Virus record (IMG/VR): IMGVR_UViG_3300046167_000543
Span: 1-61,602 of that record
Length of the DNA stretch: 61,602 nucleotides
Strand: one strand, 5' to 3'
DNA from: a virus
Lineage: Duplodnaviria; Caudoviricetes
The translations under genes and the position numbers were made by a program. How positions within the stretch are numbered: the first letter of the stretch is position 1; each line of letters opens with the position of its first letter. Of the stretch, positions 28,236-59,446 are shown piece by piece. The notes beneath the pieces are model-generated. The model had not been told where the DNA came from, made no database searches, and saw nothing but the letters and a program-made list of their open reading frames with translations.

Positions 28236-29574
28236 TTATCCTACGTATGTAAGTAATACTTCGTAAGCACCGTCAGATATTGAACCTACAAATTCAACAC
28301 TTAAATTCGCGCCTGATCTTGTTACACCCTGCGTATACTGTTTCACCCGCAGAACTTATAACTTCGCACTTAACATCTATAGCGCTAGCACCTGCGAAAG
28401 AGTTAGTAACATTATAAGTAAATGTTGTTAAACCACCAGCTTGACTACCACCTGTTAGTGAGACTCTATCGCCTAAAGCGCCTGTATCTACTGGAACTGC
28501 CCAAGTACCATCACCTCTAAGGAATGTGGTGCCAGCACCTCCTGCTGGTACAATACCCAGTGTAGAACCTCCTGCGTATATATCAGAAGAAACAAACCCG
28601 TTTGCTGTAACATTAAAGTGAGCGGAGTTAAAACCAGCAACACCTTTTTGAGTTGCGCCATCTGTAGCTCCTTCACCCGCTACGTTTTGATCTGCTATAA
28701 CAACAGTGTAGTCAGATAGTGAAGGACTAGAATTAGCAGCAATATTAGAGTTGGCAAATATAAAATCCCCAACCTCTACGTTTTCGGTAAAAAACGTACC
28801 TGCTGTAGTTACTACGTAAAAATCACCTTGATTTAAAGCGACGTTACTCGCGCCTGTTAAAGCCGGTGTATTTGTAGTTGCGTTATATCCTCCTTGAAAA
28901 CCTCCAACTCCACCTACTTGAGATAATACATATTGTTTTGAAGCAGCGTCAGTATTAGCACTTGGTGTAGCAGGTACTGTTACTTGACCTGCAAAACTTG
29001 ATTGACCTGCGCCGTTTACAGTGAGCGTGCCAGCTAAAGTAATACTATCGTCTAGATGAAACCTAGTTTCGCCTCCAGCATTCTCTGTATTTATATTTGT
29101 TCCACCTGTAAAATCAATTGTGTTTCCACTTTGTATAATTCTAGTACTACCGGCATCTGCTGCGGCTGACCACGTATAATCTTCAGCTGCTGGCAATGTT
29201 ACTGTTTTAGTATTTACAACAGTTACGTGACCTGTGGTATTTGTGTTTACAGTATCTATAACTGTGAAGCTAGCACCATAAGCAGGTGAAACACTATTAC
29301 TGTTATTTGTTCTAGTTGTATTGTCGTGGTTTAAAATTACATCCGCTGCGGTTCCAGCGTTAGTTAAGTAAGTTCCAGCTGTTAATGACTCTACACCGCC
29401 ACCTACTTCTACCCAAGAACCGTTAGCATATACTTTTACTTTATCAGTTGCTGTGTTAAAATATAATTGCCCCTCGTTTCCAGATGCTGGATCTGATCCT
29501 AGATTTTCTACTCTTAGTTTTTCAGCTTGCGCGCCACCAGAAAATGTTATGTTATTTAAAAATGCTATTGCCAT
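28236..29574 (-). CDS. tail fibre/spike protein with apparent +1 frameshift near the 3' end
   Basis: ORF track ends at 28294 (...GCNKIRREFKC). Removing one G at 28327-28329 gives ...GETVYAGVTRSGANLSVEFVGSISDGAYEVLLTYVG* ending at 28236. Confidence 0.65.
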
Positions 29575-31544: not shown

Positions 31545-31591
31545 TAGTCACACTGGTAAATAGGTGAGTTCGATTCTCACCGTGACTACTA
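31545..31591 (+). ncRNA. tRNA minihelix-like element (acceptor stem + T-arm only)
   Basis: tagtcac/gtgacta stem, ggtgag-TTCGATT-ctcacc T-arm, 11-nt connector, followed by CTA. Confidence 0.6.
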
Positions 31592-32471: not shown

Positions 32472-32565
32472 TCGTTGCAAAAATAACTCGAGCACAAATC
32501 GAAGCAATAGAGCGCGAATGGTATGAGCGTTATAACTCAGGTGTTCCACAATGGCAAGCAGAGTA

Positions 32566-32597
32566 TTACAAATAAAATACGACGCTTACTGGATAAT
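32566..32597 (+). promoter_or_regulatory. early motif copy 5
   Basis: TTACAAATAAAATAC-gacgcttact-GGATAAT. Confidence 0.8.
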
Positions 32598-32617
32598 ATA
32601 ATAAACAAATACAAACT

Positions 32618-32803
32618 ATGCAATCAATTAAATTCTTGTCTGATAAGACAATCAAGCTAAACGGTATCAAGTACAAACCTTACAACTTAGGTAACTTACC
32701 TCCAACGTTTGGCTTCAAACAAAGAGTAACAGGTGACGGTGATATCCAAGAAGGTATCTACCAATGGTTCAACTACAAAGGTTTTACTTATGTCGCCGAG
32801 TAA
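32618..32803 (+). CDS. early hypothetical protein
   Basis: 61 aa downstream of motif copy 5. Confidence 0.55.
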   Translation: MQSIKFLSDKTIKLNGIKYKPYNLGNLPPTFGFKQRVTGDGDIQEGIYQWFNYKGFTYVAE

Positions 32804-33047
32804 CATGAAAGAACTGCTTGACTATGTAAAACAAGCAAAACAACAGCGAGCTGCGGAGCATAGACGTAAGTTTGCCCACGAAGGCAGGTGCAGTGGACTA
32901 ACTGACAAAGAATACACTCGTATTGTACACAGTCAGAAATCTAGCTTCCCAAAAGTTAGAAAGTTCACTCACCATGCTATGTGGCGTGAAACTAGCAAAC
33001 AATACTCAGTCGAACAACTAAAACAAATCAAGAAATGTACTATATAA
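32790..33047 (+). CDS. early basic hypothetical protein
   Basis: ORF 32733..33047; start more likely at MSPSN/MKELL. Confidence 0.45.
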   Translation: MSPSNMKELLDYVKQAKQQRAAEHRRKFAHEGRCSGLTDKEYTRIVHSQKSSFPKVRKFTHHAMWRETSKQYSVEQLKQIKKCTI

Positions 33048-33226
33048 CTATACTTGACTTCGCGAACGGCTCGGTTGACCAGTACAACCTCGCTGACCAC
33101 TTTGATAAAACTACGCTTGCACATTGGCAAACTGAAGATTTTGAAGAGTTTATAACAAGCGAAGGCTATAAATTAAACAACATTGAGTGGATGTCCCACT
33201 CTGATAACACAATAAACTACTTTTAA
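33035..33226 (+). CDS. early hypothetical protein
   Basis: 63 aa. Confidence 0.5.
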   Translation: MYYITILDFANGSVDQYNLADHFDKTTLAHWQTEDFEEFITSEGYKLNNIEWMSHSDNTINYF

Positions 33227-33370
33227 TATGCAATTTTTAGAACCAGGAAATTTTAACGGACTTATATTCAGAGACGGAATGGTGTTTATATCTGATATAG
33301 ATAAGTGGATATCTAAAGAAGAGTATGAAGCTTACAAAATGGAGCAAATAAACCAACTAAATAATAGAAA

Positions 33371-33565
33371 ATGAGTAAAATGAAAGAAATAGACGATATA
33401 GCTCAAGGTGTAGCAGATGTTACACTAGAGCTGATGGAAGACAGTGTTGAGTGGCAAATAGCCGATAAACCTGTAGAAGGTGATGCTTATTTTGAGCTAA
33501 AAGATTACGTTATAAGTAAAGCAATTGAACTTCTTTACAAACAAAATACGACACCTGTTGGATAA
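33371..33565 (+). CDS. acidic early protein
   Basis: 64 aa; 3' end is encoded by motif copy 6. Confidence 0.5.
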   Translation: MSKMKEIDDIAQGVADVTLELMEDSVEWQIADKPVEGDAYFELKDYVISKAIELLYKQNTTPVG

Positions 33566-33566
33566 T
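33535..33566 (+). promoter_or_regulatory. early motif copy 6
   Basis: TTACAAACAAAATAC-gacacctgtt-GGATAAT. Confidence 0.8.
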
Positions 33567-33583
33567 AATATAAAATAATAAAT

Positions 33584-33778
33584 ATGTATTGTAAATGTAA
33601 ACCCGGTGTAAAAATACCACAGTTGCGATTAGATATGGGCTACAAAACTTGTGTGTCGTGCTCAACAACCCAAACGTACAGTTATGTACCAATTATTGAG
33701 CATAAAACCGGTAATACAATACAAATCGTCAGTCAAGAGGTAAGCGCATCAGTGCACCGATCTTGGCGACGTAAGTAG
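33584..33778 (+). CDS. DksA/TraR-like C4 zinc-finger protein
   Basis: CKC...KIPQLRLDMGYKTCVSC resembles the CxxC..IPxxRL...CxxC finger. Confidence 0.55.
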   Translation: MYCKCKPGVKIPQLRLDMGYKTCVSCSTTQTYSYVPIIEHKTGNTIQIVSQEVSASVHRSWRRK

Positions 33779-33972
33779 CTAGATGAGTGGTCTAATCAGG
33801 GCAATATAAGTCAGGGCATATCGATTAATGACGTGCATTTGTCCTCAGAGGCCGACTCTAGCGGCAACTAGGTATGGTATGCAGTGCGTTTGAATTAGTA
33901 ACCGTTTTCACGAGCTAATTAACGAGGCATTACTACTGACGAGTATGAGGGTTCGATTCCCTCGCTAGTTAC
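33776..33972 (+). ncRNA. extended tRNA-like RNA (~196 nt)
   Basis: tagctag/ctagtta closing stem, gaggg-TTCGATT-ccctc T-arm, two long internal hairpins. Confidence 0.6.
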
Positions 33973-33974
33973 AA

Positions 33975-34056
33975 AGCGGCAGACCGGTATGCTGCTCCCT
34001 TACGGGAAACCCGTGCTACAAAGCATCAAGCCTTTTAGGTTGAAAACAAGTAAGGG
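33975..34056 (+). ncRNA. hairpin plus four-way-junction structured element
   Basis: agcggca/tgctgct hairpin; cccttac/gtaaggg stem enclosing three small hairpins. Confidence 0.45.
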
Positions 34057-34061
34057 AATAT

Positions 34062-34133
34062 GGGCGTGAAATGGATAGGGGTTCTGCTTTGTGCATTACC
34101 TAAACGCAGGTTCGATTCCTGCCACGTCCACTA
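34062..34133 (+). ncRNA. mini tmRNA-like / D-armless alanine-identity tRNA mimic
   Basis: GGGCGTG/CACGTCC acceptor with G3-U70, discriminator A, gcagg-TTCGATT-cctgc T-arm, no D stem. Confidence 0.65.
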
Positions 34134-34147
34134 AATTAAATTAAATT

Positions 34148-34402
34148 ATGACTAAAATACCGACACTTTACGATAAGCTAAAGCCTCGCGTGCGAGCTAA
34201 GCTTAAAGAAAATGAAGGCAAATACAGCTCAATAGTTAGGCAAGTTATTGCTAGACTTGAAAGTACTTACTTTGTACAAGACTTAACCGTTGGCGAACTA
34301 AAGCGAATACATTTGTTTTCTGATACAGATTATGTAAATCAAACAGCTCTATCTATTATGTGGGGCGATGAAATTTTTGACGACTATGAAGGAAACGATT
34401 AA
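34148..34402 (+). CDS. hypothetical protein
   Basis: 84 aa. Confidence 0.5.
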   Translation: MTKIPTLYDKLKPRVRAKLKENEGKYSSIVRQVIARLESTYFVQDLTVGELKRIHLFSDTDYVNQTALSIMWGDEIFDDYEGND

Positions 34403-34661
34403 ACTAAAAGCACACGACAAAGCGTTTGCTAAAATACACGCTCTACAACTAGAAGTTAGAAGACTAGAGTATGACATTGAGCGTAAGAATACTGGTGTAA
34501 TAACTATGCACGAGTTAGAAATATGTCTTGACGCTGCAAAGCGCGAGCTTGAAACTTGGAATTATATATTAAAACTAATAGAATTAGATTATGGAAAACA
34601 CGACTACGTTGATGAAATACTTGGGAGTCGAGGAGATTACAACACCGCGACAGCAGGTTAA
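34386..34661 (+). CDS. coiled-coil hypothetical protein
   Basis: ORF 34368..34661; likely start MKETIK. Confidence 0.45.
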   Translation: MKETIKLKAHDKAFAKIHALQLEVRRLEYDIERKNTGVITMHELEICLDAAKRELETWNYILKLIELDYGKHDYVDEILGSRGDYNTATAG

Positions 34662-34944
34662 TGGAACTAGAGAATTTGCCTTACCTTATAAAATAAGAGG
34701 TAAGCGTGTGACACTAGCCTCTTATCAATCAGGTTATGTAAGGATTGACAGAAATTGTCACTCAAAATATCAGATAAATCCTACTTACGAAGTACCTTAC
34801 AGGTTCATAAACAAACAAGGTGAGCTTCGTGCTTGGACAAACAAAAGACGTATGATGATATACGGCGAACAATCACGTATTAACTTTATATTTAACTACA
34901 TTATTAAAAACTATTACAGCCAAAACAAATGGAAAAAATACTAA
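34591..34944 (+). CDS. hypothetical protein
   Basis: 117 aa. Confidence 0.5.
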   Translation: MENTTTLMKYLGVEEITTPRQQVNGTREFALPYKIRGKRVTLASYQSGYVRIDRNCHSKYQINPTYEVPYRFINKQGELRAWTNKRRMMIYGEQSRINFIFNYIIKNYYSQNKWKKY

Positions 34945-35393
34945 CAGACAAGCTAATAACTGATAAGTTAGAAGCTAAAGGGTACTTAGAGTACCACGAT
35001 ATGGACGAAACTAAAGCTTGGAACTTGCTTGAAAAGCATTTCGAGTGTGAAGTAACAGATGTTTTTACAAATACAAGTAAAGAATTTTACTGTTACACAG
35101 AAACCACAGCTGATGGCTATGAGATATGGATCGCAACAAACGATATGGATTCTCCATGTATAAGCGAAGATGTATATTACTACGACAATGATTTATCAGA
35201 TGCGATAGTAGAAGCTATTGTAAATGGTGAAGATATGTATGTAGATGACCTAGATGCGCATTATTTTATGGACGCTGTTGAAGAAGCGTACGGTCAAATG
35301 GTAAACAATATAAAAGAAGAAATAGAAAACGAACTAATAGAACAAGGATATGAGTACGAAAACACAGATGAAGCCGCTACCGAAATGGTTTAA
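34929..35393 (+). CDS. highly acidic protein
   Basis: 154 aa, Asp/Glu- and Tyr-rich, no Arg. Confidence 0.6.
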   Translation: MEKILTDKLITDKLEAKGYLEYHDMDETKAWNLLEKHFECEVTDVFTNTSKEFYCYTETTADGYEIWIATNDMDSPCISEDVYYYDNDLSDAIVEAIVNGEDMYVDDLDAHYFMDAVEEAYGQMVNNIKEEIENELIEQGYEYENTDEAATEMV

Positions 35394-35616
35394 TGGCGAC
35401 GTGTACCCAAAAGGTGGTACAGTAGAAAACATATTTACAGGCGAACCAGCAGAATTAAATGCAAACGAGCTTAGTATGTATGACTTTATTATGGGTTTAA
35501 CTATGGTGCTTGAACGCACTGGTTATAGATCTGAAAAGCTAATTAAAGATCACCGCAGAGGTTTAGACTGGTTCCGCAGGGCTAATGCTTCAGCATATAT
35601 GACTTTATTAGATTAA
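35350..35616 (+). CDS. hypothetical protein
   Basis: 88 aa; ends GLDWFRRANASAYMTLLD. Confidence 0.55.
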   Translation: MSTKTQMKPLPKWFNGDVYPKGGTVENIFTGEPAELNANELSMYDFIMGLTMVLERTGYRSEKLIKDHRRGLDWFRRANASAYMTLLD

Positions 35617-35623
35617 AACCACC

Positions 35624-35696
35624 TGTCTCATGGTGTAATTGGTAACACGTCTGATTTTGGTTCAGAAGAGTCTAGGTTCGATTCCTAGTGAGACAA
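35624..35696 (+). tRNA. tRNA-Gln(TTG)
   Basis: full cloverleaf: tgtctca/tgagaca acceptor, D-arm GGTGTAATTGGTAACAC, tctga-ttTTGgt-tcaga anticodon arm, ctagg-TTCGATT-cctag; CCA not encoded (CTA). Confidence 0.95.
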
Positions 35697-35699
35697 CTA

Positions 35700-35731
35700 T
35701 TACAAACAAAATACGAACACTAACGGATAAT
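35700..35731 (+). promoter_or_regulatory. early motif copy 7
   Basis: TTACAAACAAAATAC-gaacactaac-GGATAAT directly after the tRNA. Confidence 0.8.
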
Positions 35732-35745
35732 AAATAAAAATAAAT

Positions 35746-35940
35746 ATGCCAAATATGAGTTATTGCAGGTATGAAAATACCTCTATGGATATGCAGGACG
35801 TAGTAGATACACTATTTGACTGCGATGTAGACGTGGATCTTAGCTATTCAGAGCGAAGAGGTCTAGATACTATACTTGAGCTTGCAAAAGATATAGTAGA
35901 TATGGAAGATAAAATTACTAATATATTAGATAATGGATAG
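35746..35940 (+). CDS. acidic hypothetical protein
   Basis: MPNMSYCRYENT... 64 aa. Confidence 0.55.
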   Translation: MPNMSYCRYENTSMDMQDVVDTLFDCDVDVDLSYSERRGLDTILELAKDIVDMEDKITNILDNG

Positions 35941-36154
35941 AGACAAACATATATGGGAAGGCTGGACAGTCGGTGACTTCATTGATGATGTAGAACCTAT
36001 ATTTGATACTATACAAAATGGTAATGATTGGGGTTTAAATACTAAGTTTAAAGACAAGTCAGATCTTAAAAAATGGGTTAAAGACAATCAACCTTACTAT
36101 AAAAAACATATACCAGAAGTATACAATTACTTCTTACAAAAATCAGGATTATAA
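35933..36154 (+). CDS. hypothetical protein
   Basis: 73 aa. Confidence 0.55.
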   Translation: MDRDKHIWEGWTVGDFIDDVEPIFDTIQNGNDWGLNTKFKDKSDLKKWVKDNQPYYKKHIPEVYNYFLQKSGL

Positions 36155-36309
36155 TGGGGTTTACAAAGACAAAATTCAAAACAATTAAACTAACAGAAGG
36201 CGATGCATTATTTGTAAACCATGTGCTTCATATATATGCTCAGCAAACACCTGGGCTTGATAGCGAAGACAAGGCAGAAATAAAAGAAGTCGCAGCTAAA
36301 TTTAAATAA
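36154..36309 (+). CDS. small hypothetical protein (51 aa)
   Basis: hand-translated MGFTKTKFKTIKLTEGDALFV...; fills gap. Confidence 0.45.
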   Translation: MGFTKTKFKTIKLTEGDALFVNHVLHIYAQQTPGLDSEDKAEIKEVAAKFK

Positions 36310-36310
36310 T

Positions 36311-36757
36311 ATGGGTACAAGATCACTAACACGAATTATACCACGCCAAGAAGGCTTAGCGTATGACAAAGCACATGAAAAACCAGAGCTTGCGCTTGTG
36401 AATATTTATCAGCAATATGATGGTTATCCTGAATATATGGCAGTAGAATATGCCAAATGGCTAGAAGATATTAGCATAGGAAACGGTATATCAGGAAATC
36501 CAGAGTTGAATGAATTTGCAAATGGCGTAGGTTGTTTTGCAGCTCAGTTCATAAAACACTTCAAAGATAGACCAGGCGGTTTATATTTATCACCTATTGA
36601 TGATGATTATGGCTGGGCGGACTATGTGTACACTTTGTTTCCTAAAGAAGGCGAACAAACCTATATGTCTGTGTATGATGTATTACTAGACTTAGTTATA
36701 TTTGTAGGTAAACCAGATGCAGCACTTAAAAAATACAATAAAAAAGAATTAGTATGA
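36311..36757 (+). CDS. conserved phage hypothetical protein
   Basis: MGTRS...IYQQYDGYP...DYVY pattern. Confidence 0.6.
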   Translation: MGTRSLTRIIPRQEGLAYDKAHEKPELALVNIYQQYDGYPEYMAVEYAKWLEDISIGNGISGNPELNEFANGVGCFAAQFIKHFKDRPGGLYLSPIDDDYGWADYVYTLFPKEGEQTYMSVYDVLLDLVIFVGKPDAALKKYNKKELV

Positions 36758-36999
36758 CAGAAAAAGAACTAGATTATCTAGCAGATAAAATTGCTACTAA
36801 AATTATTGAAACTTTATTTGATTCAGGTGACCTTGAGATTACTCAGTTTCCACCCGCGACAGATGAAGAAATAATGGTAGGAGAACTAGCGCGACTTATG
36901 ACCCTATTGTCAACGTATGAAGACAAAGAGGAATATGAAAAAGCAGCTATAATTAAAAGAAAAATAGAAAGATTACAAACTAAATACGGAAAATTATGA
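36754..36999 (+). CDS. UVR (UvrB/UvrC) coiled-coil motif protein
   Basis: C-terminal EEYEKAAIIKRKIERL. Confidence 0.55.
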   Translation: MTEKELDYLADKIATKIIETLFDSGDLEITQFPPATDEEIMVGELARLMTLLSTYEDKEEYEKAAIIKRKIERLQTKYGKL

Positions 37000-37829
37000 T
37001 AAAACCTATGCTAGCGCATAAAGTAAATGAGAACAGAATTGATTTCTCAGAGAAGGTTTTTATACAACCTAAGCTCGATGGCGTGCGCTGTATATTTACT
37101 AAAGATGGTGCGTACTCACGTACCGGCAAAGAGTTCCACAACTTACAACATATTAAGATAGATCTTGAAAAGTTCTTTGATCAGCAACCTAATGCTGTTC
37201 TTGATGGTGAGTTGTATAATCACGATCTAAGAGACGATTTCGAACAAATCATATCATTGGTCAGAAAACAAAAACCGACTGACGAGGATCGTCTAAATGC
37301 ACACAGACTAATACAATACCACGTATACGATATGATAGCTGAAGGTCCTAGTTATGAAGACAGACTTAACTGGCTATTGTCAAGTAAATACTTGTGGTCA
37401 GATTCAGTTATATCTGTTGAAACTATACAGGTTCATAAGTATGAAGAAGCTGCTAACGTACACTACGATGGCTTTCTAAAACAAGGTTACGAAGGCTCTA
37501 TACTAAGACTTAACGGTCCGTATGAGCAAAAACGTAGCTATAACCTACAAAAATTCAAAGACTTCAGTGACACCGAAGCTACTATTATTGGCTATGAAGC
37601 CGGTAAAGGTAAGTTTACAGGTCTTATTGGTAAGTTCTTAATGGTAGATGATGATGGTAACGAGTTCGGTTGTCCAATCGGTAAAGGTTACAACTACTCT
37701 GATCGTCGTTATATACTAGAAAATATTCACGACTATATCGGTAAAGTTGCTACATTTACGTACTTCGAACGTACTAAAGCTGGTAGCTACAGACACCCGC
37801 TGTACAAAACCCTTAGAAATTATGAGTAA
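36996..37829 (+). CDS. lig: ATP-dependent DNA ligase
   Basis: QPKLDGVR (KxDG), LDGELY, YHVYD, GYEGSILR, QKFK motifs and OB domain. Confidence 0.92.
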   Translation: MIKPMLAHKVNENRIDFSEKVFIQPKLDGVRCIFTKDGAYSRTGKEFHNLQHIKIDLEKFFDQQPNAVLDGELYNHDLRDDFEQIISLVRKQKPTDEDRLNAHRLIQYHVYDMIAEGPSYEDRLNWLLSSKYLWSDSVISVETIQVHKYEEAANVHYDGFLKQGYEGSILRLNGPYEQKRSYNLQKFKDFSDTEATIIGYEAGKGKFTGLIGKFLMVDDDGNEFGCPIGKGYNYSDRRYILENIHDYIGKVATFTYFERTKAGSYRHPLYKTLRNYE

Positions 37830-50704: not shown

Positions 50705-53700
50705 TTACTTTATTTTAGATTTTTTATATTTACTTTTTCTTGGTTGCGGTTTGTTGCTAGGTTTTTCCTCATCAATACCAATTTCCCAGTCTTGCCAACC
50801 ACCTAATAACGTCAAGCGTTCCCAAGTCTCTAAGTCTTGTGACGTAGCTGTAACCACGTTGTTGGTTTTCTTTATAGCTCTATCAAGAGGTACATTAGTA
50901 AGCGCCGCTATAACATTAGCACTTGCTAAGTAAGCTGGGTTATCTAAGCTCCAACCTTTTTCTTTCATTTCGTCTTTATCCCATTGGTAAGATCTCGCTG
51001 CTTGATTTATACGCGATAGCTTAGCAGATATAGGTGGAGATAGTTTAGTAATTTCATAACCTACTTTTTCAAGCTTAGGTCGTTCCTTTTCCATCTCGTT
51101 TATAATACGGATTATAGCGTTTTTACCTACTGAAACTACAGCACCGCCTAATCCCATACCTCTTAAAAGCGAGTCCATCATACCATTAGCTATACTAACA
51201 TATTTTTTCTTTTGCTCGTCTGTATCTTCTTCATCATCATCAAAAGCAAACGCAAACAAAGCTTGTTGCAACGCGTTAAACAATAAGTTCTGCGCTACAC
51301 CGTAGTATATAATCTTACTTATATTAGTCTTAGCATCGCCTCGGCCATTCTTAAGATCGCTAGCAGCTTTTTTTATAAGTCTAGCATACTGAGCTGGTGT
51401 GTTAGCAAAAGCTAATACAAGACGTCCTAATGGACCTGCTTGTTGCATTGATATTCTATCAGGCCTTGATGACTGTTGCGACTCTTCTGCTGTCTCTCTA
51501 AAGTCTACAAATGCCTGAGCTTCAGCCTCAGCATCTGTCATACCTTGTTTTTTCAAGGACTTAATACGGTTACGATAAAACGCTGAGCCACCTGATGCTA
51601 TAGCAAAGCTATCTGCTATTTGTGTAGGTGTGAAACCAAACTCAAGTAGTTTATTTATAACGCCTTTAGCACCACCTTTCTTAGCCATATCTGCAATATC
51701 AGCTTCACTTACGTTGATACGTAAACCACCACGACGTTCTTTCAAGAAGTCAGAGTTCATAAGCGTCATAAAGTCAGACCAGTATTGTTTCTGGTTTGCA
51801 AAAGCTTTACCCGCAGCTAGTATATTGTTATCAGTGAAGTTAACAAAGTTAATACTAGATATAGTTTGTAGTATTGCTGATCTTGTATTAAAGAACATTA
51901 TAGTACCAATACTACCTGTGACCCAGTCAGTAAATCTACCTGTAAGCGTATCGCCTTGGAAGTTTCTGTTACGACCAGACTTCATACGCTGCAGCATATT
52001 CTCCATAGCTAAGCGATATGGTTTACCGTACGCAGCTTCAAGTTTATTTAAATTCTTTTCAGAGAATATAACATCTGCATTAGTTTGCCACTGCTCTAAG
52101 TACTTAGCTCGCTTAGTGGTGTTAAGACCTTCAAGCATATCAGTTGTAATAGTACCAGCTGGCCAACCTTCTTTAGGCGCCGCGTATTGATCACCTTTTT
52201 GTATAGCAACTAGTTGATCAGCAAAAATCTGTAGCTCAGCATTGTCGCTTACGTACTTACTAAGATCAGCTTGATCTTTCTTACTTATCCCAGGTATAGA
52301 CATACCTTGCTTATCCCATATGTACACGCGTACAGCTTGCTCTCTAGTAAACGGTTCACCTGGAACTTTCTTACGTAGATTTTTAGGTACTATTTCTAAT
52401 TGTTTCTTTAACAATTTGTAGTCGTTCATCATAGATATACGAGCTGATGACAATTCATTCATAGCTCTAGCATATGGGTTTAACAAATGAGTTTTATACC
52501 ATGCCATCTGTTGGTCACCTAATTTACCTTTACCAAGCGTAGCGTATAATAAACCTGTAAAGTCTTCAGCAGATGGTGGTATAAAGAAGTTTAATCTACC
52601 TTTACCAGCCCCAGCTACTTCAGCTTTTACTCTACCATATTCTTTTTCAGATGCTATACCTGTTTTGTTTTCTAGTATATCATTAAAACCTCTATCAAGA
52701 TCAGCTTTTTTACTAAACTTAATTTTAGCTTGCTGTACTTTAGATTTTACATCAAATACATTTAATGCGTCTTGTACTGCTTTAACGTTTTTATACGCAT
52801 CATCTACAAAGAAAAAGTCGTTATAACCTTCAGCAGCTTTACCCGTCATCCAACGTGCTTTAGCCTCTGCTTTACCATCACCAAGCCCTACAATATTTTC
52901 AATAGGCAGGTTAACGCCAAGCGCGTCCATAAATTCTTTGATAGGACCAGCAGCATTAGCAGGTCTAGCTGTAAGTATGAATACATCTTCAGCACCTCTT
53001 GCTTTAACTATATTTTCTATAGCTTTAAATACAGGACCTCTTTTACCGTCAATCACTTTGCTAAACTCCGAGAAATCAAACTGAGCTCCTTGAGCTTCTA
53101 ACTCTCCAGCTCTTGCAGCAAACTGTGTAGCGTTAAGCTTACCAGTTGTACCATCAGGCATCTCGTATAGCACATTGCTGTTAGATCTAGCTAATGTATC
53201 ATCAAAGTCAAATACACGTATCTTTTTAACAGGTGCTTCAGGGTTTCTAGCGTTAGCCATAGCTTTGTCAGCATTACCTAAGTTATCAAGTATTTCTTGA
53301 TTAGGTACTTGCTTACTAAACTTAATAGTGTTATTTTGATTGTTATTACCAACACCAGCTTTAGGTATGGATTTTAATTTAGCAAATTCATTTAATCTAT
53401 CTTGCCCTGTTTTAGCAGTTATATCCCCGCTCAATACTTCTTTTAATATTTTATTTTGCTCAGATACAGTTTCAACATTTACATCACTAGGTTTTAAAGC
53501 AACACCTAGTTCTTCAGCCATAGTTTGACCTGTTTCGTAATTAACAATACTATTAAGATCGATACCAGCTTCAATAAATCTAATAGCAGGGTTGTCTGCT
53601 ATAGTTGTTCCAATAGGTAGCGTAGCATCTAACTTAGCATCGTCTAATTTTTGATCGTCAGCTTTAGAAAGTTTAGTTTGATAATAGTTCTTTTTAATAT

Positions 53701-56700
53701 CAGTCATTATTTGACTAGTATTATTTGTAGCAAAACCATATATGATTGAAGCGCCAACCACGGATGCTGGAGGATTGTGTTCTTCTCTAACCTTATCACC
53801 TGTTCTCTGCTTAGGTGAGGTACCGTATTGTGGATTTTTAGAAAAATACCTAAACGGTGCTGCTATCTTAATAAGACCAGTCGTTGCTTGGTAGCCTTGA
53901 GCTATAATCATAGCTGCTAATTCTTTAGGCATACCATTTTGTATAGCTTTATCTAATTGACTTACAACGTCGTCAAGCACTTGCATGTTAATTTTTGCTT
54001 GAGCTCTTCCTTTGTCTGTATCAACATCTTTAAGATTAACCCTTTTAGCTTTAGGTTTTTGATCTCCTTTTGAGTTTGATTTAGCTTTATCTAAAGCTCT
54101 TTTATAAGCTGGATCATTGACGCCGTAATACAATCTACCTCTATTTGGCAAAAGATTAGTAATGTTTTTTGGAGGAACAACTTTTTTACCAACAGTACCG
54201 TCAGTTTTAATTAAACGTTCTCCTTTAACCCAATCTCCGTTATCTAACGCGTACCAGTAATCACCTTCTTTTGCTTTAGTTCCAGTTCTTTCTAAAAAAG
54301 CGTTTAGTTTTTTAGCTTCAGGTGTTAGCTTTCCTTTTTTTGTTTTTCCTACTTGAGTTCTAACAGCGCCACCAAAAGCAAAAGATCCTGCTAAAAATAC
54401 ATCTTCAGTAAGTTTATATTTTTCTATAGCGTCTTCAAAAGAAGTTTGTATTTCAGCTCTTTTATTATCAGGAACGCTAGCACTATCCATGCCAACTATT
54501 TTTAGTACAGCATTAATATCTCTAGCTTGTGTAACATCTATCAACGCTTTTTTACTAAACATAAGTCTAGATCTACCAGCTCTAGTATCTGCTCTCTGCT
54601 GTTTAGGAGCACTCTCTGGCAACGATTTGTCTGCAACTGATAAAGCAACTTGACCACCACGCATACGCGCCCAAGCGGCAAGTTTTGTAGCGTAGTTTCT
54701 TCTTTCGTTTTTACTAAGCTCGTTTAAATCAACGTCAATACCAGCCCACTCTCTGGCTTTTGATACAGCTTGCGGACTTATTTTACCTTGTCTATTAGGT
54801 CTAAACTCTGGTTTTAATCTATATACTTTAGTTTGAGTAGTCTTACCTTTGCTTCTACCAGACTTGTTAGTAATAGCCATTGCTCTAACAGCTCTATCTG
54901 TACTTTCAGAAGCTGGATCTGTGTAAGGTTCGTAAAAGAAATCTAATACTGTTTGACCTATTTTCATAGATCGACCTCTAACTTCTGGACTTACTGGTAC
55001 TCTTTCACCTTGCTCTGTAATAGTCGACTCCATTGTTGTGACGTTAAACTCAGGCATAGTCTTTATAGACCTTTCAGTCTCTTGAGCGTTAGAAAAGTCT
55101 TGTTGTATTCTACCAAGCTCTGAAGTTTCAGGTTTGTTTTTAGAATAGGTTAAGTTATCTACTTTTTCTATTTTATCTTCAGGAACATTATATATTTCCG
55201 ATGCAAATTTAGAGCGATTGTTATTTAATATTTCTACAGATGAATCACCTTCATTTATTTTTATTTCTTTTTCTAACGTTGGTAAAACTTTTTTAACTCT
55301 AGGACTTTTTCTTACATCAATTAGTTTAGATCTACCTGATTCTTCAGCTTGAGCTCTTTCCTCTATTTCAAAAGCTTGTTCAGCTGTTTCGTCCGCAAAT
55401 TGAGTTTGCTCTACAGCTTGTGTTATAGTAGATTGACCTGTACGTCTAGTGTAGTCTTCTACAATTTTAGGACCAACACGTCTACCTAATATATTACCTA
55501 CATAAGTACTAAGCTGCATCGGCTTTCCAGTCACTCTATTCGTCGGTGTGTAATTTTTCATTACACTTTCAAATTGATTGTTTATATCGCTTATTACGTT
55601 TTCATCAACTTGAAGTGGAACACCTCTTTGTTTAGCCCATCTTTGCAGCGCGTCTATACCAAGTCTTTGGTATTGATCTTGTAAATTAGAAATGTCTTGC
55701 TCAGACATAGATTCTTTATTGTTCTTATATTGACTAGCTAAATCGTTAACAGCTTTAGAGGCTTTGATTGTAGTTTCATCTTCCTCATCTACATCGGCAA
55801 TAGCAACACCAGAAATAGCTTGTTTTCTAAAAGAATCTATATAGTTATAAACATCTGAGCCTGTGTTAAATTGTACAAACACCTCTGATTGATCTCCAAA
55901 AATTTTATTAGTTATGTTATTAAACAAACCTTTAAAAGAATTTAATACGTTATTAGGATTGAAATCGCTTTTGTTTAATATACCTAAGTTAACAGCGTCG
56001 CTAAGAACTTGCATAAATTCCTCATAATCACCATCATTTTCGTATTGAGCTAAACGTTTTTTTATAGCGTCGTAATCATTTTGAGTTATAGACTCTTGTT
56101 CTAGCTTATCATCTAACATATTGATGGCTTCTGTCACTGCTTTTTTATTTGTTAAAGCTTCAGCAGAATCACCTGTAAATTTTATTTTTTTATTTTTATT
56201 TCTAAGATGACTAACCTCATGTAAAGCTGTAACAGCAGCAAATTTACCATTAGAGTTAGTAATAGATTGTAATATACTTTTTTTAGACTCATTAACATCT
56301 ACAACAACAACATTATCAAAAGCGTATGCGTTTTGACTACCACTTGTGATTAATTCAAAAGCATCTGCGGTTTGTACATCTCCATTATCATCTGTATAAC
56401 TTATAGTTCTACCTTTAAATTTTTCAAGATCAGCAGCGTCTTCTTCAAGGAAATAAATTTCATTTCCTTTACCAACCATAGCGTCAGCCATAATATTAGA
56501 AGATTCAAACAAGTTTAAATGAAATATAGTTTCAGGATTTGTTTTAATATCAAGATTTTGCTTGTCAATAAACTCTTGATTACGCTTACTTCTAACACTA
56601 AGTATATCGTTTTTACGATTTTTCAAAACCACTGACTGCTCTTGTAAGTTTTGTAAAGATTTTATTTCGCTTTCTGTAGGAAGTCCAGTTGTAGAATTTG

Positions 56701-59446
56701 CTAATGTAGTTGCGTCCCTTGTTATTTTTTTTATTGCAACTTCTATTTCACCAATTTCTTTTATTTGTGCTGGCGTAAGTGTGTTTAATTTACTTATGTT
56801 AACAATGTCTTGTAACCCTAGGTCTAATAATATTTCTTTACTTTTCTTTATACGATCTGACGTTGGTAGATCTTGAGCTTCTATAAGTTGTCTAGTCAAA
56901 GATTGATACTTGCTTAACTCACTATTGCTTGTAACGTGCTCTTTAATAATAGCGTTAGCATTGTTTATTGTTTTACCGCTGAGCATTAGCAAAGTAGCAA
57001 AAGAAGTATTAGCAAAAAGATCTTCGTTTATTTCTTCAAAAACATTTACATTTTCTCCAAGTATAATATTACGAACAATACCTTGATCTAGTATGCTTTC
57101 TAAAGATTCTTGGGCATTTTCTTTTATTAAGCCACCACCCACAACACCTCCTAATTCTAAAGTCTGTGGAATCCAAGCTTTAGAAACAGCGTCTTTATCT
57201 AATAAAAGTCTACCGCTTTTTAATTCTTTTATAAATTTATTTTTACCTATGTTTTTAGCTACTCTATTAAAGTCATCAAAAAGTTTTAATGTTACTGCTT
57301 GCTCTGAATATTTTGTTATAAAACCAGTTACCAATCCACTAACTCCTGTTTGAAATGTAGATTTATTTAAACTATTTTCTAAAGAAACAATTTGATTTTC
57401 TAATTGACGTTTAACTATAGGATCTTTTGTTTTTTCTATTTCAGCTTTTAATCCTTCTATTTTTTTAGGATTAAACTTTTTAGCAATTTCTACACTTTGA
57501 ATAGTTTGGCTTCCGGTTTGTAATCCAAATAAATTACCAGAAACTTTAGCCATACCTTTACTTAAACCTTTGTTAAATGAAGCAGTTGCAACTCTTTGAG
57601 CTGCTGACATACCACTAGTAAATCCTTTTGCAACTAAACCTGTTACTAATTGTGGTCCAGCTATGGTTAACAGTGTAGGCGCCGCAGAAGCTGTTGAATC
57701 AGAAACAAAAGCCCAACCGCTAGCTTTACCTTTTCTAACTTCATCTACCGTTATTGGAGATGGTAGCGCTTGTATTTTTTCTTCTATAGCTTGATTGTAG
57801 TTTACAGCTGTACCTATTAAAGCATCAGCGCCTCTAACTAATTTGGAATCTAATACATTTTGAAAATCAAATCCACTAGCGCCTGATTGTGTTAGTTCTG
57901 CTAAACCAGATGTTAAAAAAGCAGCTGCCCTAGCTGTGTAAGCCCCTGCAATAGCAGCGCTACCGCCGAAAGATTGTTCTATATTTAAAGCTGTTCTAGT
58001 GCTAAACCTATAGTCTTTGTTTAATGCTACAAATGTTTGATCTAAATCTTTTAAATCATCATACTTTTGAAGATTAACATTATATTGTTGCTGCATTTTA
58101 AGAATTTGAACTCCTTGATCAGCAAGTTTTAAATTTTCTTCTTGTAAAGCTTGGGCTTCTGGGCCTGTTGCTATAGCATTTCTTTCGTTTACTTTTTGCT
58201 GTAACTTATTGTAAATATTATTACCAGTTTCTTGACCAGTACTAGTAACAGGGTAAGCAAAATCTTGCAAACGTTTTTTGTAGGTTTCTATATCTTTGTC
58301 TAAAACCTGTATAGCGTCATTTATTTTTTCAATTTTTGGAGCTAAAACATTAAAATCATTATTATATTGTTCTTGCCTTGCTACCAAGGTAGAACCTCCT
58401 ACTTTTAAATCGTTTTTAACTTTATCTAAATCTTGTCCTTCTGGAGTTTCTTTTAATAATACACTTGTAAAATCTTGAACGTCTTCATTATAGTTATTAG
58501 CAACTAATTCTTTATTTCTATTTTCTATAGTATATAAAGCTTGTTGATTTGCAGTTGGTATAGATTCTTTTTGATAATCATTTAAAGGGTTTAATGTACC
58601 TTTGTCTTGATATTGATTATACAAAGCAACGTAATCTTTTGCGCCTTGGTCATTTAAATTGGCAGCAATAGCAGCGTCATAAATTCTCTGTTCTTTTTCT
58701 TCTTTAGTAGCAGCCCTTCTGTTTATTTGAACAGTTCCACCTGGAGTAACAGTGGTAGTACCTAAGTCTACAGGAGCATCGATCCAACCAGTACCACCAC
58801 CCGGGGTTTTTTCAAAATAAACTTCATATGTTTTATTAGTTATCTCTTGCTCTGGTATGTTAGCGTTAGCATTAGCTATGTTATCTATTAAAGATCTAGC
58901 TCCAGATTCTTCACCTACATAACCTTCGTATTGAGCACGTTGAACATCTGCTTTTGTAAGTTCGCCTTTAGCAAAAGCATCTTTATATTTATTTTGATTT
59001 TTTAATCTATTATCTAGCTTAGACCATTCTTCTCTAGTAATAGGCGTGTTATCTCCAAAGCCAGTTACAACAACTTCTTCAAGATCTATAGTTTGAGAAG
59101 AAATTAATTTATCTTCAAACCTGCTAAGCCTACGTCTTGCCAATATAGCATCTCGAGATGTATCTAATTCACCGTATTCAGCTACGTCTTTTTGTAACTC
59201 CAATAAAGTATTTGCCGAGTCTGATTCCGTACTCTCGGGTGCTTCCCCGGTTTCCGGTGTTGCAGTTGCACCCTTTGCCACAGCACCGTTTGTCTTTCCC
59301 TCGGTTGGGGTTGTTTGTATTTCGTCTGTAACTTCTACAGTTTCAAGTCCATGCTTGTTTACATACTCGTCTACAGACAGTTGCTCATTACTTGCAGCTT
59401 GAGTAACTTCATCTAACGTGTATTCAAATCCTTGATACTTAAACAT
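50705..59446 (-). CDS. giant internal virion/ejection polyvalent protein (zincin + HAD domains)
   Basis: 2913 aa; HEVSH, HAD motifs DFDDT/LTAR/K/VDD, C-terminal region with hydrophobic helices; last of three ejection-like genes. Confidence 0.7.
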   Translation of the reverse strand: MFKYQGFEYTLDEVTQAASNEQLSVDEYVNKHGLETVEVTDEIQTTPTEGKTNGAVAKGATATPETGEAPESTESDSANTLLELQKDVAEYGELDTSRDAILARRRLSRFEDKLISSQTIDLEEVVVTGFGDNTPITREEWSKLDNRLKNQNKYKDAFAKGELTKADVQRAQYEGYVGEESGARSLIDNIANANANIPEQEITNKTYEVYFEKTPGGGTGWIDAPVDLGTTTVTPGGTVQINRRAATKEEKEQRIYDAAIAANLNDQGAKDYVALYNQYQDKGTLNPLNDYQKESIPTANQQALYTIENRNKELVANNYNEDVQDFTSVLLKETPEGQDLDKVKNDLKVGGSTLVARQEQYNNDFNVLAPKIEKINDAIQVLDKDIETYKKRLQDFAYPVTSTGQETGNNIYNKLQQKVNERNAIATGPEAQALQEENLKLADQGVQILKMQQQYNVNLQKYDDLKDLDQTFVALNKDYRFSTRTALNIEQSFGGSAAIAGAYTARAAAFLTSGLAELTQSGASGFDFQNVLDSKLVRGADALIGTAVNYNQAIEEKIQALPSPITVDEVRKGKASGWAFVSDSTASAAPTLLTIAGPQLVTGLVAKGFTSGMSAAQRVATASFNKGLSKGMAKVSGNLFGLQTGSQTIQSVEIAKKFNPKKIEGLKAEIEKTKDPIVKRQLENQIVSLENSLNKSTFQTGVSGLVTGFITKYSEQAVTLKLFDDFNRVAKNIGKNKFIKELKSGRLLLDKDAVSKAWIPQTLELGGVVGGGLIKENAQESLESILDQGIVRNIILGENVNVFEEINEDLFANTSFATLLMLSGKTINNANAIIKEHVTSNSELSKYQSLTRQLIEAQDLPTSDRIKKSKEILLDLGLQDIVNISKLNTLTPAQIKEIGEIEVAIKKITRDATTLANSTTGLPTESEIKSLQNLQEQSVVLKNRKNDILSVRSKRNQEFIDKQNLDIKTNPETIFHLNLFESSNIMADAMVGKGNEIYFLEEDAADLEKFKGRTISYTDDNGDVQTADAFELITSGSQNAYAFDNVVVVDVNESKKSILQSITNSNGKFAAVTALHEVSHLRNKNKKIKFTGDSAEALTNKKAVTEAINMLDDKLEQESITQNDYDAIKKRLAQYENDGDYEEFMQVLSDAVNLGILNKSDFNPNNVLNSFKGLFNNITNKIFGDQSEVFVQFNTGSDVYNYIDSFRKQAISGVAIADVDEEDETTIKASKAVNDLASQYKNNKESMSEQDISNLQDQYQRLGIDALQRWAKQRGVPLQVDENVISDINNQFESVMKNYTPTNRVTGKPMQLSTYVGNILGRRVGPKIVEDYTRRTGQSTITQAVEQTQFADETAEQAFEIEERAQAEESGRSKLIDVRKSPRVKKVLPTLEKEIKINEGDSSVEILNNNRSKFASEIYNVPEDKIEKVDNLTYSKNKPETSELGRIQQDFSNAQETERSIKTMPEFNVTTMESTITEQGERVPVSPEVRGRSMKIGQTVLDFFYEPYTDPASESTDRAVRAMAITNKSGRSKGKTTQTKVYRLKPEFRPNRQGKISPQAVSKAREWAGIDVDLNELSKNERRNYATKLAAWARMRGGQVALSVADKSLPESAPKQQRADTRAGRSRLMFSKKALIDVTQARDINAVLKIVGMDSASVPDNKRAEIQTSFEDAIEKYKLTEDVFLAGSFAFGGAVRTQVGKTKKGKLTPEAKKLNAFLERTGTKAKEGDYWYALDNGDWVKGERLIKTDGTVGKKVVPPKNITNLLPNRGRLYYGVNDPAYKRALDKAKSNSKGDQKPKAKRVNLKDVDTDKGRAQAKINMQVLDDVVSQLDKAIQNGMPKELAAMIIAQGYQATTGLIKIAAPFRYFSKNPQYGTSPKQRTGDKVREEHNPPASVVGASIIYGFATNNTSQIMTDIKKNYYQTKLSKADDQKLDDAKLDATLPIGTTIADNPAIRFIEAGIDLNSIVNYETGQTMAEELGVALKPSDVNVETVSEQNKILKEVLSGDITAKTGQDRLNEFAKLKSIPKAGVGNNNQNNTIKFSKQVPNQEILDNLGNADKAMANARNPEAPVKKIRVFDFDDTLARSNSNVLYEMPDGTTGKLNATQFAARAGELEAQGAQFDFSEFSKVIDGKRGPVFKAIENIVKARGAEDVFILTARPANAAGPIKEFMDALGVNLPIENIVGLGDGKAEAKARWMTGKAAEGYNDFFFVDDAYKNVKAVQDALNVFDVKSKVQQAKIKFSKKADLDRGFNDILENKTGIASEKEYGRVKAEVAGAGKGRLNFFIPPSAEDFTGLLYATLGKGKLGDQQMAWYKTHLLNPYARAMNELSSARISMMNDYKLLKKQLEIVPKNLRKKVPGEPFTREQAVRVYIWDKQGMSIPGISKKDQADLSKYVSDNAELQIFADQLVAIQKGDQYAAPKEGWPAGTITTDMLEGLNTTKRAKYLEQWQTNADVIFSEKNLNKLEAAYGKPYRLAMENMLQRMKSGRNRNFQGDTLTGRFTDWVTGSIGTIMFFNTRSAILQTISSINFVNFTDNNILAAGKAFANQKQYWSDFMTLMNSDFLKERRGGLRINVSEADIADMAKKGGAKGVINKLLEFGFTPTQIADSFAIASGGSAFYRNRIKSLKKQGMTDAEAEAQAFVDFRETAEESQQSSRPDRISMQQAGPLGRLVLAFANTPAQYARLIKKAASDLKNGRGDAKTNISKIIYYGVAQNLLFNALQQALFAFAFDDDEEDTDEQKKKYVSIANGMMDSLLRGMGLGGAVVSVGKNAIIRIINEMEKERPKLEKVGYEITKLSPPISAKLSRINQAARSYQWDKDEMKEKGWSLDNPAYLASANVIAALTNVPLDRAIKKTNNVVTATSQDLETWERLTLLGGWQDWEIGIDEEKPSNKPQPRKSKYKKSKIK

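What the first reader, a model, noticed from the sequence alone, without database searches (positions are those of the whole stretch)
34062..34133. 69-nt mini tmRNA-like RNA with alanine identity but no mRNA domain
Seen: acceptor GGGCGTG/CACGTCC with G1-C72, G2-C71, G3-U70 and discriminator A. An unpaired AAATGGA loop replaces the D-arm, followed by a short tagg/ccta helix, a 3-nt AAC linker and a canonical T-arm. Established: G3-U70/A73 are the AlaRS determinants, and the stemless D-loop plus 3-nt linker (usually GAC) is the architecture of the tmRNA tRNA-like domain bound by SmpB. Inference: an alanylatable tmRNA mimic without a tag reading frame. It could sequester SmpB or release stalled ribosomes without tagging phage proteins for degradation, or act as a decoy for tRNA-targeting toxins. 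Together with the other mimics this is my best candidate for an undescribed system.
Basis: partly seen in the sequence, partly recalled or inferred. Interest (0 to 1): 0.85.

Follow-up and report, generated by a model that had tools for sequence, protein, structure and literature searches.

The report
Tag-less mini-tmRNA gene in phage
This marine phage carries a real, strongly conserved 69-base gene for an RNA that keeps only the alanine-accepting, tRNA-like end of the bacterial ribosome-rescue RNA (tmRNA); one such phage RNA is already published, so it is a new member of a known kind whose action on the host is still untested.

Summary
Window 34062-34130 is a 69-nt RNA gene with a 7-bp acceptor stem (G3-U70, discriminator A), a stemless D-loop, a 4-bp helix, an AAC linker and a canonical T arm.

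It belongs to a family of 62 distinct sequences in related uncultured viral contigs and three MAG contigs. G-U at 3:70 is kept in 60 of the 62. The helix next to the tRNA-like core covaries, and the insert inside it ranges from 19 to about 100 nt. No member is a full tmRNA or an ordinary tRNA.

Rfam places it nearest tmRNA, but below the curated cut-off (36.4 vs 47 bits).

The layout matches the published 'TLD-only' tmRNA of mycobacteriophage DS6A, which my family model also detects. So 'undescribed' does not hold, and this scan has noted the kind in other phages.

The proposed mechanism is inference only: tRNA-type processing, CCA addition, alanylation, capture of host SmpB and interference with trans-translation.

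Against a narrow tmRNA reading, the same phages carry paralogues without alanine identity and other acceptor/T-arm mini-RNAs.

Verdict: a real gene and a new member of a known kind.

The parts
34062..34130 (+). whole mini-tmRNA (tRNA-like-domain-only) gene, 69 nt
   Evidence: family model R1 scores it 66.4 bits
34062..34068 (+). acceptor stem, 5' strand (G3 at 34064)
   Evidence: identical in all 22 of 22 stretches found with a pattern that left both acceptor strands free
34069..34075 (+). stemless D-loop analogue holding the G-G pair of letters
   Evidence: the family form is a 10-nt loop; aligned to the tmRNA D-loop by Rfam
34076..34079 (+). helix P2, 5' strand (4 bp in this copy)
   Evidence: the equivalent helix covaries in the family, 5 of 5 pairs with changes on both sides
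34080..34098 (+). 19-nt loop or insert in place of the ~326 model positions of the tmRNA middle
   Evidence: the same insert is in L004, L039/L042, L041, L043; other members carry 20 to about 100 nt here
34099..34102 (+). helix P2, 3' strand
34103..34105 (+). 3-nt linker AAC before the T arm
   Evidence: AAC, or AAC with one more base, in most members
34106..34122 (+). T arm: 5-bp stem and 7-nt T loop
   Evidence: 3 of 5 stem pairs show changes on both sides across the family
34123..34129 (+). acceptor stem, 3' strand (U70 at 34127)
   Evidence: T at position 70 in 37 of 37 stretches found through the 5' part alone
34130..34130 (+). discriminator A73
34131..34133 (+). genomic trailer CTA (no encoded CCA), shared with the phage's real tRNA-Gln
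   Evidence: DS6A's TLD-only gene has the same trailer
33779..34061 (+). context, not part of the RNA itself: ORF-free stretch with further structured RNAs, including a second acceptor/T-arm RNA ending at 33974 and a four-way junction
   Evidence: first-reader notes seen

Best explanation
It is a phage gene for a tag-less mini-tmRNA: the tRNA-like domain of tmRNA closed by a short hairpin, of the same kind as the published TLD-only tmRNA of mycobacteriophage DS6A.

Shown here: it is a real, conserved, structured RNA gene with the alanine identity set (G3-U70, A73). It has the tmRNA-type D-loop, helix P2 and T-arm layout, and no room for a message.

Inferred, step by step:
1. It is cut out of the early transcript by the host's tRNA-processing enzymes and receives CCA from the host. 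The gene has CTA, like the phage's own tRNA-Gln.
2. Alanyl-tRNA synthetase charges it.
3. It binds host SmpB, and perhaps EF-Tu.
4. It then either soaks up SmpB or enters stalled ribosomes without offering a tag template. Either way the host's rescue-and-tagging pathway is blocked or made tag-free during infection.
For: Identity:
- RF00023 is the best Rfam match here and in 9 of 10 relatives' loci searched (31.5-42.6 bits). No tRNA match was listed at these sites.
- RNAalifold finds acceptor, P2 and T arm unaided.
- On 62 distinct sequences, 96.6% of cells pair against 83.4% in shuffles. There are 149 compensatory cells against 46.8 +/- 5.6, and 0 of 500 shuffles reach that (the alignment was fitted to the model).
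- G-U at 3:70 is present in 60 of the 62.

Selection on sequence, not only on shape:
- The acceptor is identical in 22 of 22 stretches found without fixing it.
- Flanking genes in the same loci are only 65-94% identical in DNA.
- The neighbouring 64-aa ORF is 40-95% identical in protein.
- The real tRNA-Met genes of these loci show 7 different acceptor 5' strands in 14 loci.

Kinship with tmRNA:
- In a 30-genome Bacteroidota sample, 16 tmRNAs carry an acceptor that differs from the phage one only by a flipped 4:69 pair. The sample has a like D-loop, and 22 of 30 genes lack an encoded CCA.

Precedent:
- DS6A 28478-28560 has the same layout, G3-U70, A73 and a CTA trailer.
- It scores 43.2 bits on RF00023 and 36.6 bits, E 3e-7, on my family model.
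- Passages of PMC4131195 and PMC11915505 state that such a molecule strongly inhibits tmRNA in E. coli, perhaps by titrating SmpB.

Not an integration site: there is no integrase hit in the window, and both halves of the domain are present.
Against: - The Rfam score is below the curated cut-off (36.4 vs 47). Matches 76-77 nt long, the size of tRNAs and not examined further, score 31-43 bits on RF00023 when it is searched alone. The score by itself therefore does not tell tmRNA from tRNA.
- The 3' linker is AAC, whereas all 30 sampled Bacteroidota tmRNAs have GGAC. SmpB recognition is therefore not assured.
- Two genomes carry second copies with G3-C70 and discriminator T (L040, L054). The same phages also hold several other classes of acceptor/T-arm mini-RNAs with the same D-loop-like connector and CTA trailer. 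The design may serve something broader than SmpB.
- The host is unknown. Bacteroidota is inferred only from primase relatives.
- No processed ends and no added CCA were seen. No alanylation or SmpB test was possible.
- I could not read Mao et al. 2009 itself. Supplements were closed.
Confidence: 0.5

Rival explanations
1. It is one member of a broader set of phage 'top-half' tRNA mimics: an acceptor stem stacked on a T arm, with a D-loop-like connector that keeps the tRNA elbow. On this reading the target is not SmpB. It would be other machinery that reads the acceptor end or the elbow, such as aminoacyl-tRNA synthetases, EF-Tu, the CCA-adding enzyme, RNase P or Z, or a defence nuclease that cuts acceptor stems. 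Alanine identity would be only one of several identities on offer.
For: One search lists recurring classes with other, conserved acceptor sequences in the window (31546-31588; 33867-33974) and in relatives. Some are only 41 nt with no P2 helix. L035:7474-7513 is a 40-nt form that keeps G3-U70. L040 and L054 hold TLD-shaped second copies with G3-C70 and discriminator T. All share the CTA trailer with the real tRNAs.
Against: The G3-U70 class is nearest tmRNA in Rfam, and its acceptor and D-loop resemble real tmRNA ends. The PMC4131195 passage says a TLD-like molecule inhibits tmRNA whether or not it can be charged, so non-alanine copies fit the SmpB reading too. No candidate nuclease or partner was identified.
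Confidence: 0.25
2. It is a processing and carrier element. The tRNA-like fold recruits RNase P or Z to cut the polycistronic early transcript between cassettes. It may also act as a stable scaffold that presents the variable hairpins inserted in P2, which would then be the functional part.
For: It lies in an ORF-free gap on the coding strand, 17 nt before the next ATG. Mimics and real tRNAs often abut the repeated promoter-like motif (first-reader note). Inserts vary from 19 to about 100 nt, and the same hairpin modules recur in different members. One module that lies inside P2 in L044 and L218 lies just outside the second copy in L217.
Against: Cutting by RNase P or Z needs shape, not sequence, yet the acceptor, G3-U70 and the T stem are almost invariant while the real tRNAs of the same phages drift. 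The window's own copy carries almost no cargo (19-nt loop).
Confidence: 0.15
3. It is a dead remnant: a decayed tRNA-Ala, a tmRNA with a recent internal deletion, or a piece of host ssrA carried as a phage attachment site.
For: It is not called by ARAGORN, it is below the Rfam cut-off, and it has no encoded CCA.
Against: There are 62 distinct family sequences with compensatory changes in P2 and the T stem, and an invariant acceptor. The longest member is 149 nt, and none is a full tmRNA or has an anticodon arm. The window has no integrase. An attachment site would hold only the 3' half. None of the 30 sampled Bacteroidota tmRNAs has this acceptor.
Confidence: 0.03
4. It is a Y-RNA-like (YrlA-type) tRNA mimic that works with a Ro60/Rsr protein.
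For: YrlA RNAs also mimic tRNA, and earlier notes of this scan found such cases in phages.
Against: No Rfam YrlA match at E up to 10 in 32500-37000. No TROVE domain in the window. Here the RNA's own ends form the acceptor stem.
Confidence: 0.03

Closest known systems
TLD-only ('no CDS') tmRNA of Mycobacterium phage DS6A (tmRNA Website tmID 11587; JN698994 28478-28560)
   Same: Both are phage-encoded. Both have a 7-bp acceptor with G3-U70 and A73, a stemless D-loop with G-G, a short P2 hairpin in place of the whole message and pseudoknot part, a T arm, and a CTA trailer instead of CCA. DS6A is detected by my family model at 36.6 bits. Both score below the Rfam cut-off (43.2 and 36.4 bits).
   Different: The stem sequences are unrelated. 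DS6A is a temperate actinophage with an integrase. The window shows no integrase, and its closest primase relatives are flavobacterial phages. Here the RNA forms a family of 62 distinct sequences with a hypervariable insert, and non-alanine paralogues occur in two of the genomes. DS6A is reported as a single case.
tRNA-like domain of bacterial tmRNA (SsrA; Rfam RF00023)
   Same: Acceptor with G3-U70, the D-loop analogue, P2, the T arm and the discriminator A all align to model positions 1-18 and 346-374. The acceptor differs from the commonest one in a Bacteroidota sample by one flipped pair.
   Different: It lacks the message, the tag frame and the pseudoknots: 25 nt stand in place of 326 model positions. 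The linker is AAC, not GGAC. It is below the gathering score.
CDS-less organellar tmRNAs (jakobid mitochondria; ~65-bp plastid genes of Mallomonadaceae)
   Same: These are tmRNA reduced to the tRNA-like domain, according to a passage of PMC11915505.
   Different: They are organellar and vertically inherited, with a nucleus-encoded SmpB. I compared no sequence.
Alanine minihelix and microhelix substrates of AlaRS (recalled from the literature, no call)
   Same: An acceptor/T-arm helix with G3-U70 and A73 is enough for charging in vitro, as I recall it.
   Different: Those are laboratory constructs. This is a natural gene with a D-loop and a P2 helix.
YrlA-type Y RNAs (Rfam RF02553)
   Same: A tRNA mimic without an anticodon that is found in phages.
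   Different: No Rfam match. No Ro60 gene in the window. The topology differs.

Membership tests
tmRNA (RF00023) | Acceptor stem with G3-U70 and discriminator A (alanine identity) | tested here: met
   60 of 62 distinct family sequences
tmRNA (RF00023) | Stemless D-loop analogue, helix P2 and a canonical T arm | tested here: met
   P2 covaries
tmRNA (RF00023) | mRNA-like domain with a resume codon, tag frame and stop | tested here: not met
   Only 19 nt lie between the P2 strands. Rfam skips 326 model positions. A 5-codon frame can be read by eye, but it ends in the P2 3' strand and linker, and the insert that holds it is replaced by unrelated sequence in most relatives.
tmRNA (RF00023) | Pseudoknots PK1-PK4 | tested here: not met
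   No room in 69 nt. None aligned by Rfam in the longer relatives.
tmRNA (RF00023) | Score at or above Rfam's gathering cut-off (47 bits) | tested here: not met
   36.4 bits; relatives 31.5-42.6 bits
tmRNA (RF00023) | 3' CCA, encoded or added | tested here: inconclusive
   The gene has CTA. 22 of 30 sampled Bacteroidota tmRNA genes also lack CCA. Addition is not testable here. RNA-library contigs read through the genomic CTA.
tmRNA (RF00023) | Works with SmpB | not testable with these tools
   No SmpB gene in the window, so the host's would be needed. The linker AAC differs from the GGAC of 30 of 30 sampled tmRNAs.
TLD-only phage tmRNA (DS6A type) | Phage gene made of the tmRNA tRNA-like domain closed by a short hairpin, with alanine identity and no tag frame | tested here: met
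TLD-only phage tmRNA (DS6A type) | Inhibits trans-translation when expressed | not testable with these tools
   Reported for a DS6A-like molecule in passages of PMC4131195 and PMC11915505. The primary paper is not held.
tRNA (RF00005) | D stem and an anticodon arm with a 7-nt loop | tested here: not met
   ARAGORN makes no call here or in 51 relatives' loci. No RF00005 match is listed at the site. There is no conserved anticodon loop in the family.
YrlA / Y RNA | Rfam RF02553 match and a Ro60 (TROVE) partner | tested here: not met

The most novel reading that the evidence does not exclude
The mini-tmRNA is one module of an undescribed multi-RNA system of a large clade of marine phages. The system would be a cassette of 'top-half' tRNA mimics with several fixed acceptor identities, alanine and others, plus exchangeable hairpin cargo carried in or beside the P2 helix. 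Together they would reprogram or decoy the host machinery that reads tRNA acceptor ends and elbows, rather than acting only on SmpB.
Probability: 0.2. Interest if true: 0.75.

Novelty: new member of a known kind. Interest (0 to 1): 0.45.

Why it matters
In the passages I read, phage TLD-only tmRNA is reported as a single case (DS6A). Here the same design appears as a deeply conserved family in more than 60 viral contigs. The window's own stretch is held by 14 DNA sequencing runs, 13 labelled seawater or marine. The tRNA-like core is almost invariant while the neighbouring genes drift. That pattern suggests blocking or re-routing ribosome rescue is a common and selected phage strategy. It also offers natural, minimal ligands for studying SmpB, AlaRS and EF-Tu recognition. 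The non-alanine paralogues and the other mini-RNAs give a ready comparison for asking whether charging matters.

Tried and rejected
Searches that gave nothing useful:
- blastn of 1 kb around the element found no relative among 50,697 deposited phage genomes. blastn of the 72 nt alone found only T-arm-sized matches.
It did turn up three MAG contigs with mini forms (L101, L112, L087) and full tmRNAs with the same acceptor.
- The 14-nt D-loop pattern returned chance matches only. 0 of the 100 loci searched, out of 116 new ones, matched model R1. I use that as a negative control.
- Pfam and PHROGs found nothing for 10 neighbouring small ORFs. The Atlas gave only a weak zinc-ribbon lead (score 0.89) for the 64-aa upstream ORF.
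- The term 'mini-tmRNA' is in 0 papers. 'minihelix' + 'phage' + 'tRNA-like' gave 9 papers, 8 listed, none on phage genes by title or abstract. 'tmRNA' + 'Cellulophaga' + 'phage' gave 14 papers. The two I opened count tmRNA genes in flavobacterial phages without describing a TLD-only form.
- Mao et al. 2009 is not held. Supplements were closed and may list further phage tmRNAs.

RNA libraries:
- Contigs of two oligo-dT RNA runs of one study lie on 33933-34133 and 33988-34126.
- Contigs cannot show ends or strand, and DNA carry-over is not excluded.
- They read through the genomic CTA, so I draw no conclusion on expression or CCA addition.

Readings considered and dropped:
- A 5-codon frame inside the hairpin acting as a tag. 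Its stop lies in the P2 3' strand and linker, and most relatives carry unrelated inserts.
- A two-piece or permuted tmRNA. The RF04321 match (18.6 bits, E 0.86) pairs the T arm with unrelated coding sequence.
- The AcrIIIA1 tRNA-fragment story, which is unrelated.
- DS6A's element as an attachment site. DS6A integrates at a tRNA-Lys gene.

Full report
WHAT IS THERE

The window is a 61.6-kb virus record rated 96% complete. It has about 35% G+C. Its primase-helicase is nearest those of Cellulophaga, Tenacibaculum, Riemerella (vB_RanS_PJN03) and Flavobacterium phages, at 42% identity or less. A Bacteroidota host is therefore likely but not shown.

Between a 64-aa ORF ending at 33778 and an 84-aa ORF starting at 34148 lies a 369-nt ORF-free stretch. 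Its last 69 nt, 34062-34130, are the finding.

Read, the element has these parts:
- a 7-bp acceptor stem with G3-U70 and discriminator A;
- a 7-nt unpaired loop holding G-G;
- a 4-bp helix around a 19-nt loop;
- the linker AAC;
- a 5-bp T stem with a TTCGATT loop;
- the genomic trailer CTA, not CCA.

ARAGORN finds only the tRNA-Gln at 35624-35697. At the gathering threshold Rfam also finds only that tRNA. With E-values, the best Rfam family at the site is tmRNA (RF00023). It scores 36.4 bits against a cut-off of 47, with E 3.7e-12. Model positions 1-18 and 346-374 are aligned, and 25 nt stand in place of 326 positions. The fold is better than shuffles (z -3.24). The T-loop motif is over-represented in the window, 5 against 0.77 expected.

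IS IT REAL? THE FAMILY

The exact 28-nt 3' part occurs in 52 stretches of IMG/VR. All of them have the matching 5' strand within 200 nt. With three MAG contigs added (L087, L101, L112), the loci come from related phages with the same gene order. Flanking DNA is 65-94% identical, and the upstream 64-aa ORF is 40-95% identical.

I checked conservation with three differently anchored scans, because the search pattern fixes part of the sequence.
- A pattern fixing only the D-loop and T arm gave 22 stretches, and all 22 have the same acceptor stem.
- A pattern fixing only the 5' 17 nt gave 37 stretches. All 37 keep T at position 70 and A at 73. The 8 new ones show compensatory or G-U changes in the T stem, and one shows A67 changed to G.

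I built a covariance model from 13 members, not including the window. It scores the window at 66.4 bits. It finds nothing in 906,497 bases of 100 unrelated viral loci.

On 62 distinct sequences aligned to this model:
- 96.6% of cells pair, against 83.4% in shuffles;
- 149 cells are compensatory, against 46.8 +/- 5.6, and 0 of 500 shuffles reach that;
- all 5 P2 pairs and 3 of 5 T-stem pairs change on both sides;
- G-U at 3:70 is present in 60 of the 62.

This alignment was fitted to the model. However, RNAalifold predicts the same three helices unaided on the MAFFT alignment, and sliding the partners destroys the signal.

Members are 68-149 nt long. The part inside P2 ranges from 19 to about 100 nt and is unrelated between many members. 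No member is a full tmRNA or has an anticodon arm. ARAGORN calls none of them in 51 loci.

IS IT tmRNA-LIKE OR JUST tRNA-LIKE?

One caution: when RF00023 is searched alone, 76-77-nt matches in bacterial genomes score 31-43 bits. They are the size of tRNAs, and I did not examine them further. The score alone therefore proves little.

The points in favour of tmRNA are these:
- In competition with all Rfam families, tmRNA wins at this site and in 9 of 10 relatives' loci, with no tRNA match listed there.
- There is no D stem and no anticodon arm.
- It resembles real tmRNA ends. In 30 tmRNAs of a Bacteroidota sample, the commonest acceptor (16 of 30) differs from the phage one only by a flipped 4:69 pair. 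The D-loop is alike but one base longer. 22 of the 30 genes lack an encoded CCA, so the CTA trailer is no objection.
- Full tmRNAs with exactly the phage acceptor exist in other bacteria.

One point against: the 3' linker is AAC, whereas all 30 sampled tmRNAs have GGAC.

WHAT IS KNOWN

Passages of Hudson et al. 2014 (PMC4131195) list 'Mycobacterium phage DS6A (TLD only)'. They say that a similar molecule, chargeable or not, strongly inhibits tmRNA, perhaps by titrating SmpB, citing Mao et al. 2009. Passages of the 2025 database paper (PMC11915505) repeat this and add CDS-less plastid and mitochondrial forms.

I located the DS6A element at JN698994 28478-28560 (43.2 bits on RF00023). It has the same layout, G3-U70, A73 and even a CTA trailer. 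My family model detects it at 36.6 bits, E 3e-7. DS6A integrates at a tRNA-Lys gene, so its element is not an attachment site.

Earlier follow-ups of this scan reached the same classification for look-alikes in other phages. First readers also flagged close relatives of this very family. So the scan has found this kind before on other DNA.

HOW IT MOST LIKELY WORKS

Shown: this is a conserved gene for a structured RNA that carries the alanine identity set and the tmRNA tRNA-like layout, with sequence-level constraint on the acceptor and T arm. In the same loci the real tRNA-Met genes show 7 different acceptor strands in 14 loci.

Inferred:
1. It is processed like a tRNA. It shares the discriminator-plus-CTA ending with the phage's tRNA-Gln and tRNA-Met genes.
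2. The host adds CCA. The window has no CCA-adding enzyme.
3. AlaRS charges it.
4. It binds host SmpB. The window has no SmpB.
5. It either titrates SmpB or enters stalled ribosomes without a template, so rescue-and-tagging is blocked or made tag-free.

The window also lacks an RF-1/ArfB domain and an integrase. I rate the identity at about 0.9 and this mechanism at about 0.5.

WHAT SPEAKS FOR SOMETHING BROADER

- Two relatives carry a second, TLD-shaped copy with A1-U72, G3-C70 and discriminator T (L040:2376-2466, L054:105-198).
- One relative has a 40-nt G3-U70 form with no P2 helix (L035:7474-7513).
- One relative has two G3-U70 copies (L217).
- The window and its relatives also hold other recurring acceptor/T-arm mini-RNAs with fixed, different acceptor sequences. 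In the window these are at 31546-31588 and 33867-33974.
- Hairpin modules recur in different inserts. One lies inside P2 in two phages and outside it in a third.

These facts keep open a wider 'top-half tRNA mimic' system and a carrier or processing role.

EXPRESSION

The stretch is held by 14 DNA sequencing runs, 13 labelled seawater or marine and one freshwater, and in part by 6 runs on record as RNA. The contigs of those RNA runs do not settle expression or 3' ends.

VERDICT

This is a real gene and a new member of a known kind. It is notable for the size and conservation of its family and for its companions. Its function is untested.

Noticed in passing
window 31546-31588 (+): A 43-nt acceptor/T-arm minihelix with an 11-nt G-G connector and the CTA trailer, and no P2 helix. 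The same acceptor sequence recurs in L020, L023, L040 and L052 as 41-nt forms, and in L054 as a 70-nt form with an insert.
   Followed up: partly
window 33867-33974 (+): A second tRNA-like RNA with a long insert and a non-alanine acceptor. RF00023 matches only its T arm, at 14.5 bits. Relatives with the same acceptor lie just upstream of the mini-tmRNA in about ten loci, for example L011, L024, L034 and L037.
   Followed up: partly
window 33977-34058 (+): A hairpin plus a four-way-junction fold lies between the two mimics. blastn finds this stretch at 79-96% identity in L011, L015, L017, L026, L028, L030 and L043.
   Followed up: partly
L040:2376-2466 (-) and L054:105-198 (-): Second, TLD-shaped copies with A1-U72, G3-C70 and discriminator T, so without alanine identity. 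They score 48 bits on model R1.
   Followed up: partly
L035:7474-7513 (-): A 40-nt minimal form that keeps G3-U70, the D-loop-like connector and the T arm, but has no P2 helix at all.
   Followed up: no
L217:755-815 versus the inserts of L044 and L218: The same hairpin module lies inside the P2 insert in two phages and just upstream of the mini-tmRNA in a third. L217 also has two G3-U70 copies, at 341-434 and 825-914.
   Followed up: partly
window 33584-33778 (+): A 64-aa Cys-rich ORF (CxC...CxxC) lies within 600 nt upstream of the mini-tmRNA in 45 of 51 loci with room, at 40-95% identity. It has no Pfam or PHROG match and only a weak zinc-ribbon lead. The linkage may be plain synteny.
   Followed up: partly
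window 35697-35750 and the 3' flanks of mimics in several loci: Real tRNAs and mimics end in discriminator plus CTA, and several run straight into the repeated promoter-like motif that precedes early genes (first-reader note).
   Followed up: no
L087:2528-2606 (+), Actinomycetes MAG contig: A 79-nt TLD-only element of the DS6A type with the same acceptor as the phage family. It scores 46.1 bits on model R1.
   Followed up: no
L183-L211, L175 (Bacteroidota sample): 22 of 30 tmRNA genes do not encode the 3' CCA.
   Followed up: no
window 50705-59446 (-): A 2913-aa ORF, the size class of virion-packaged giant proteins. I did not look at it.
   Followed up: no
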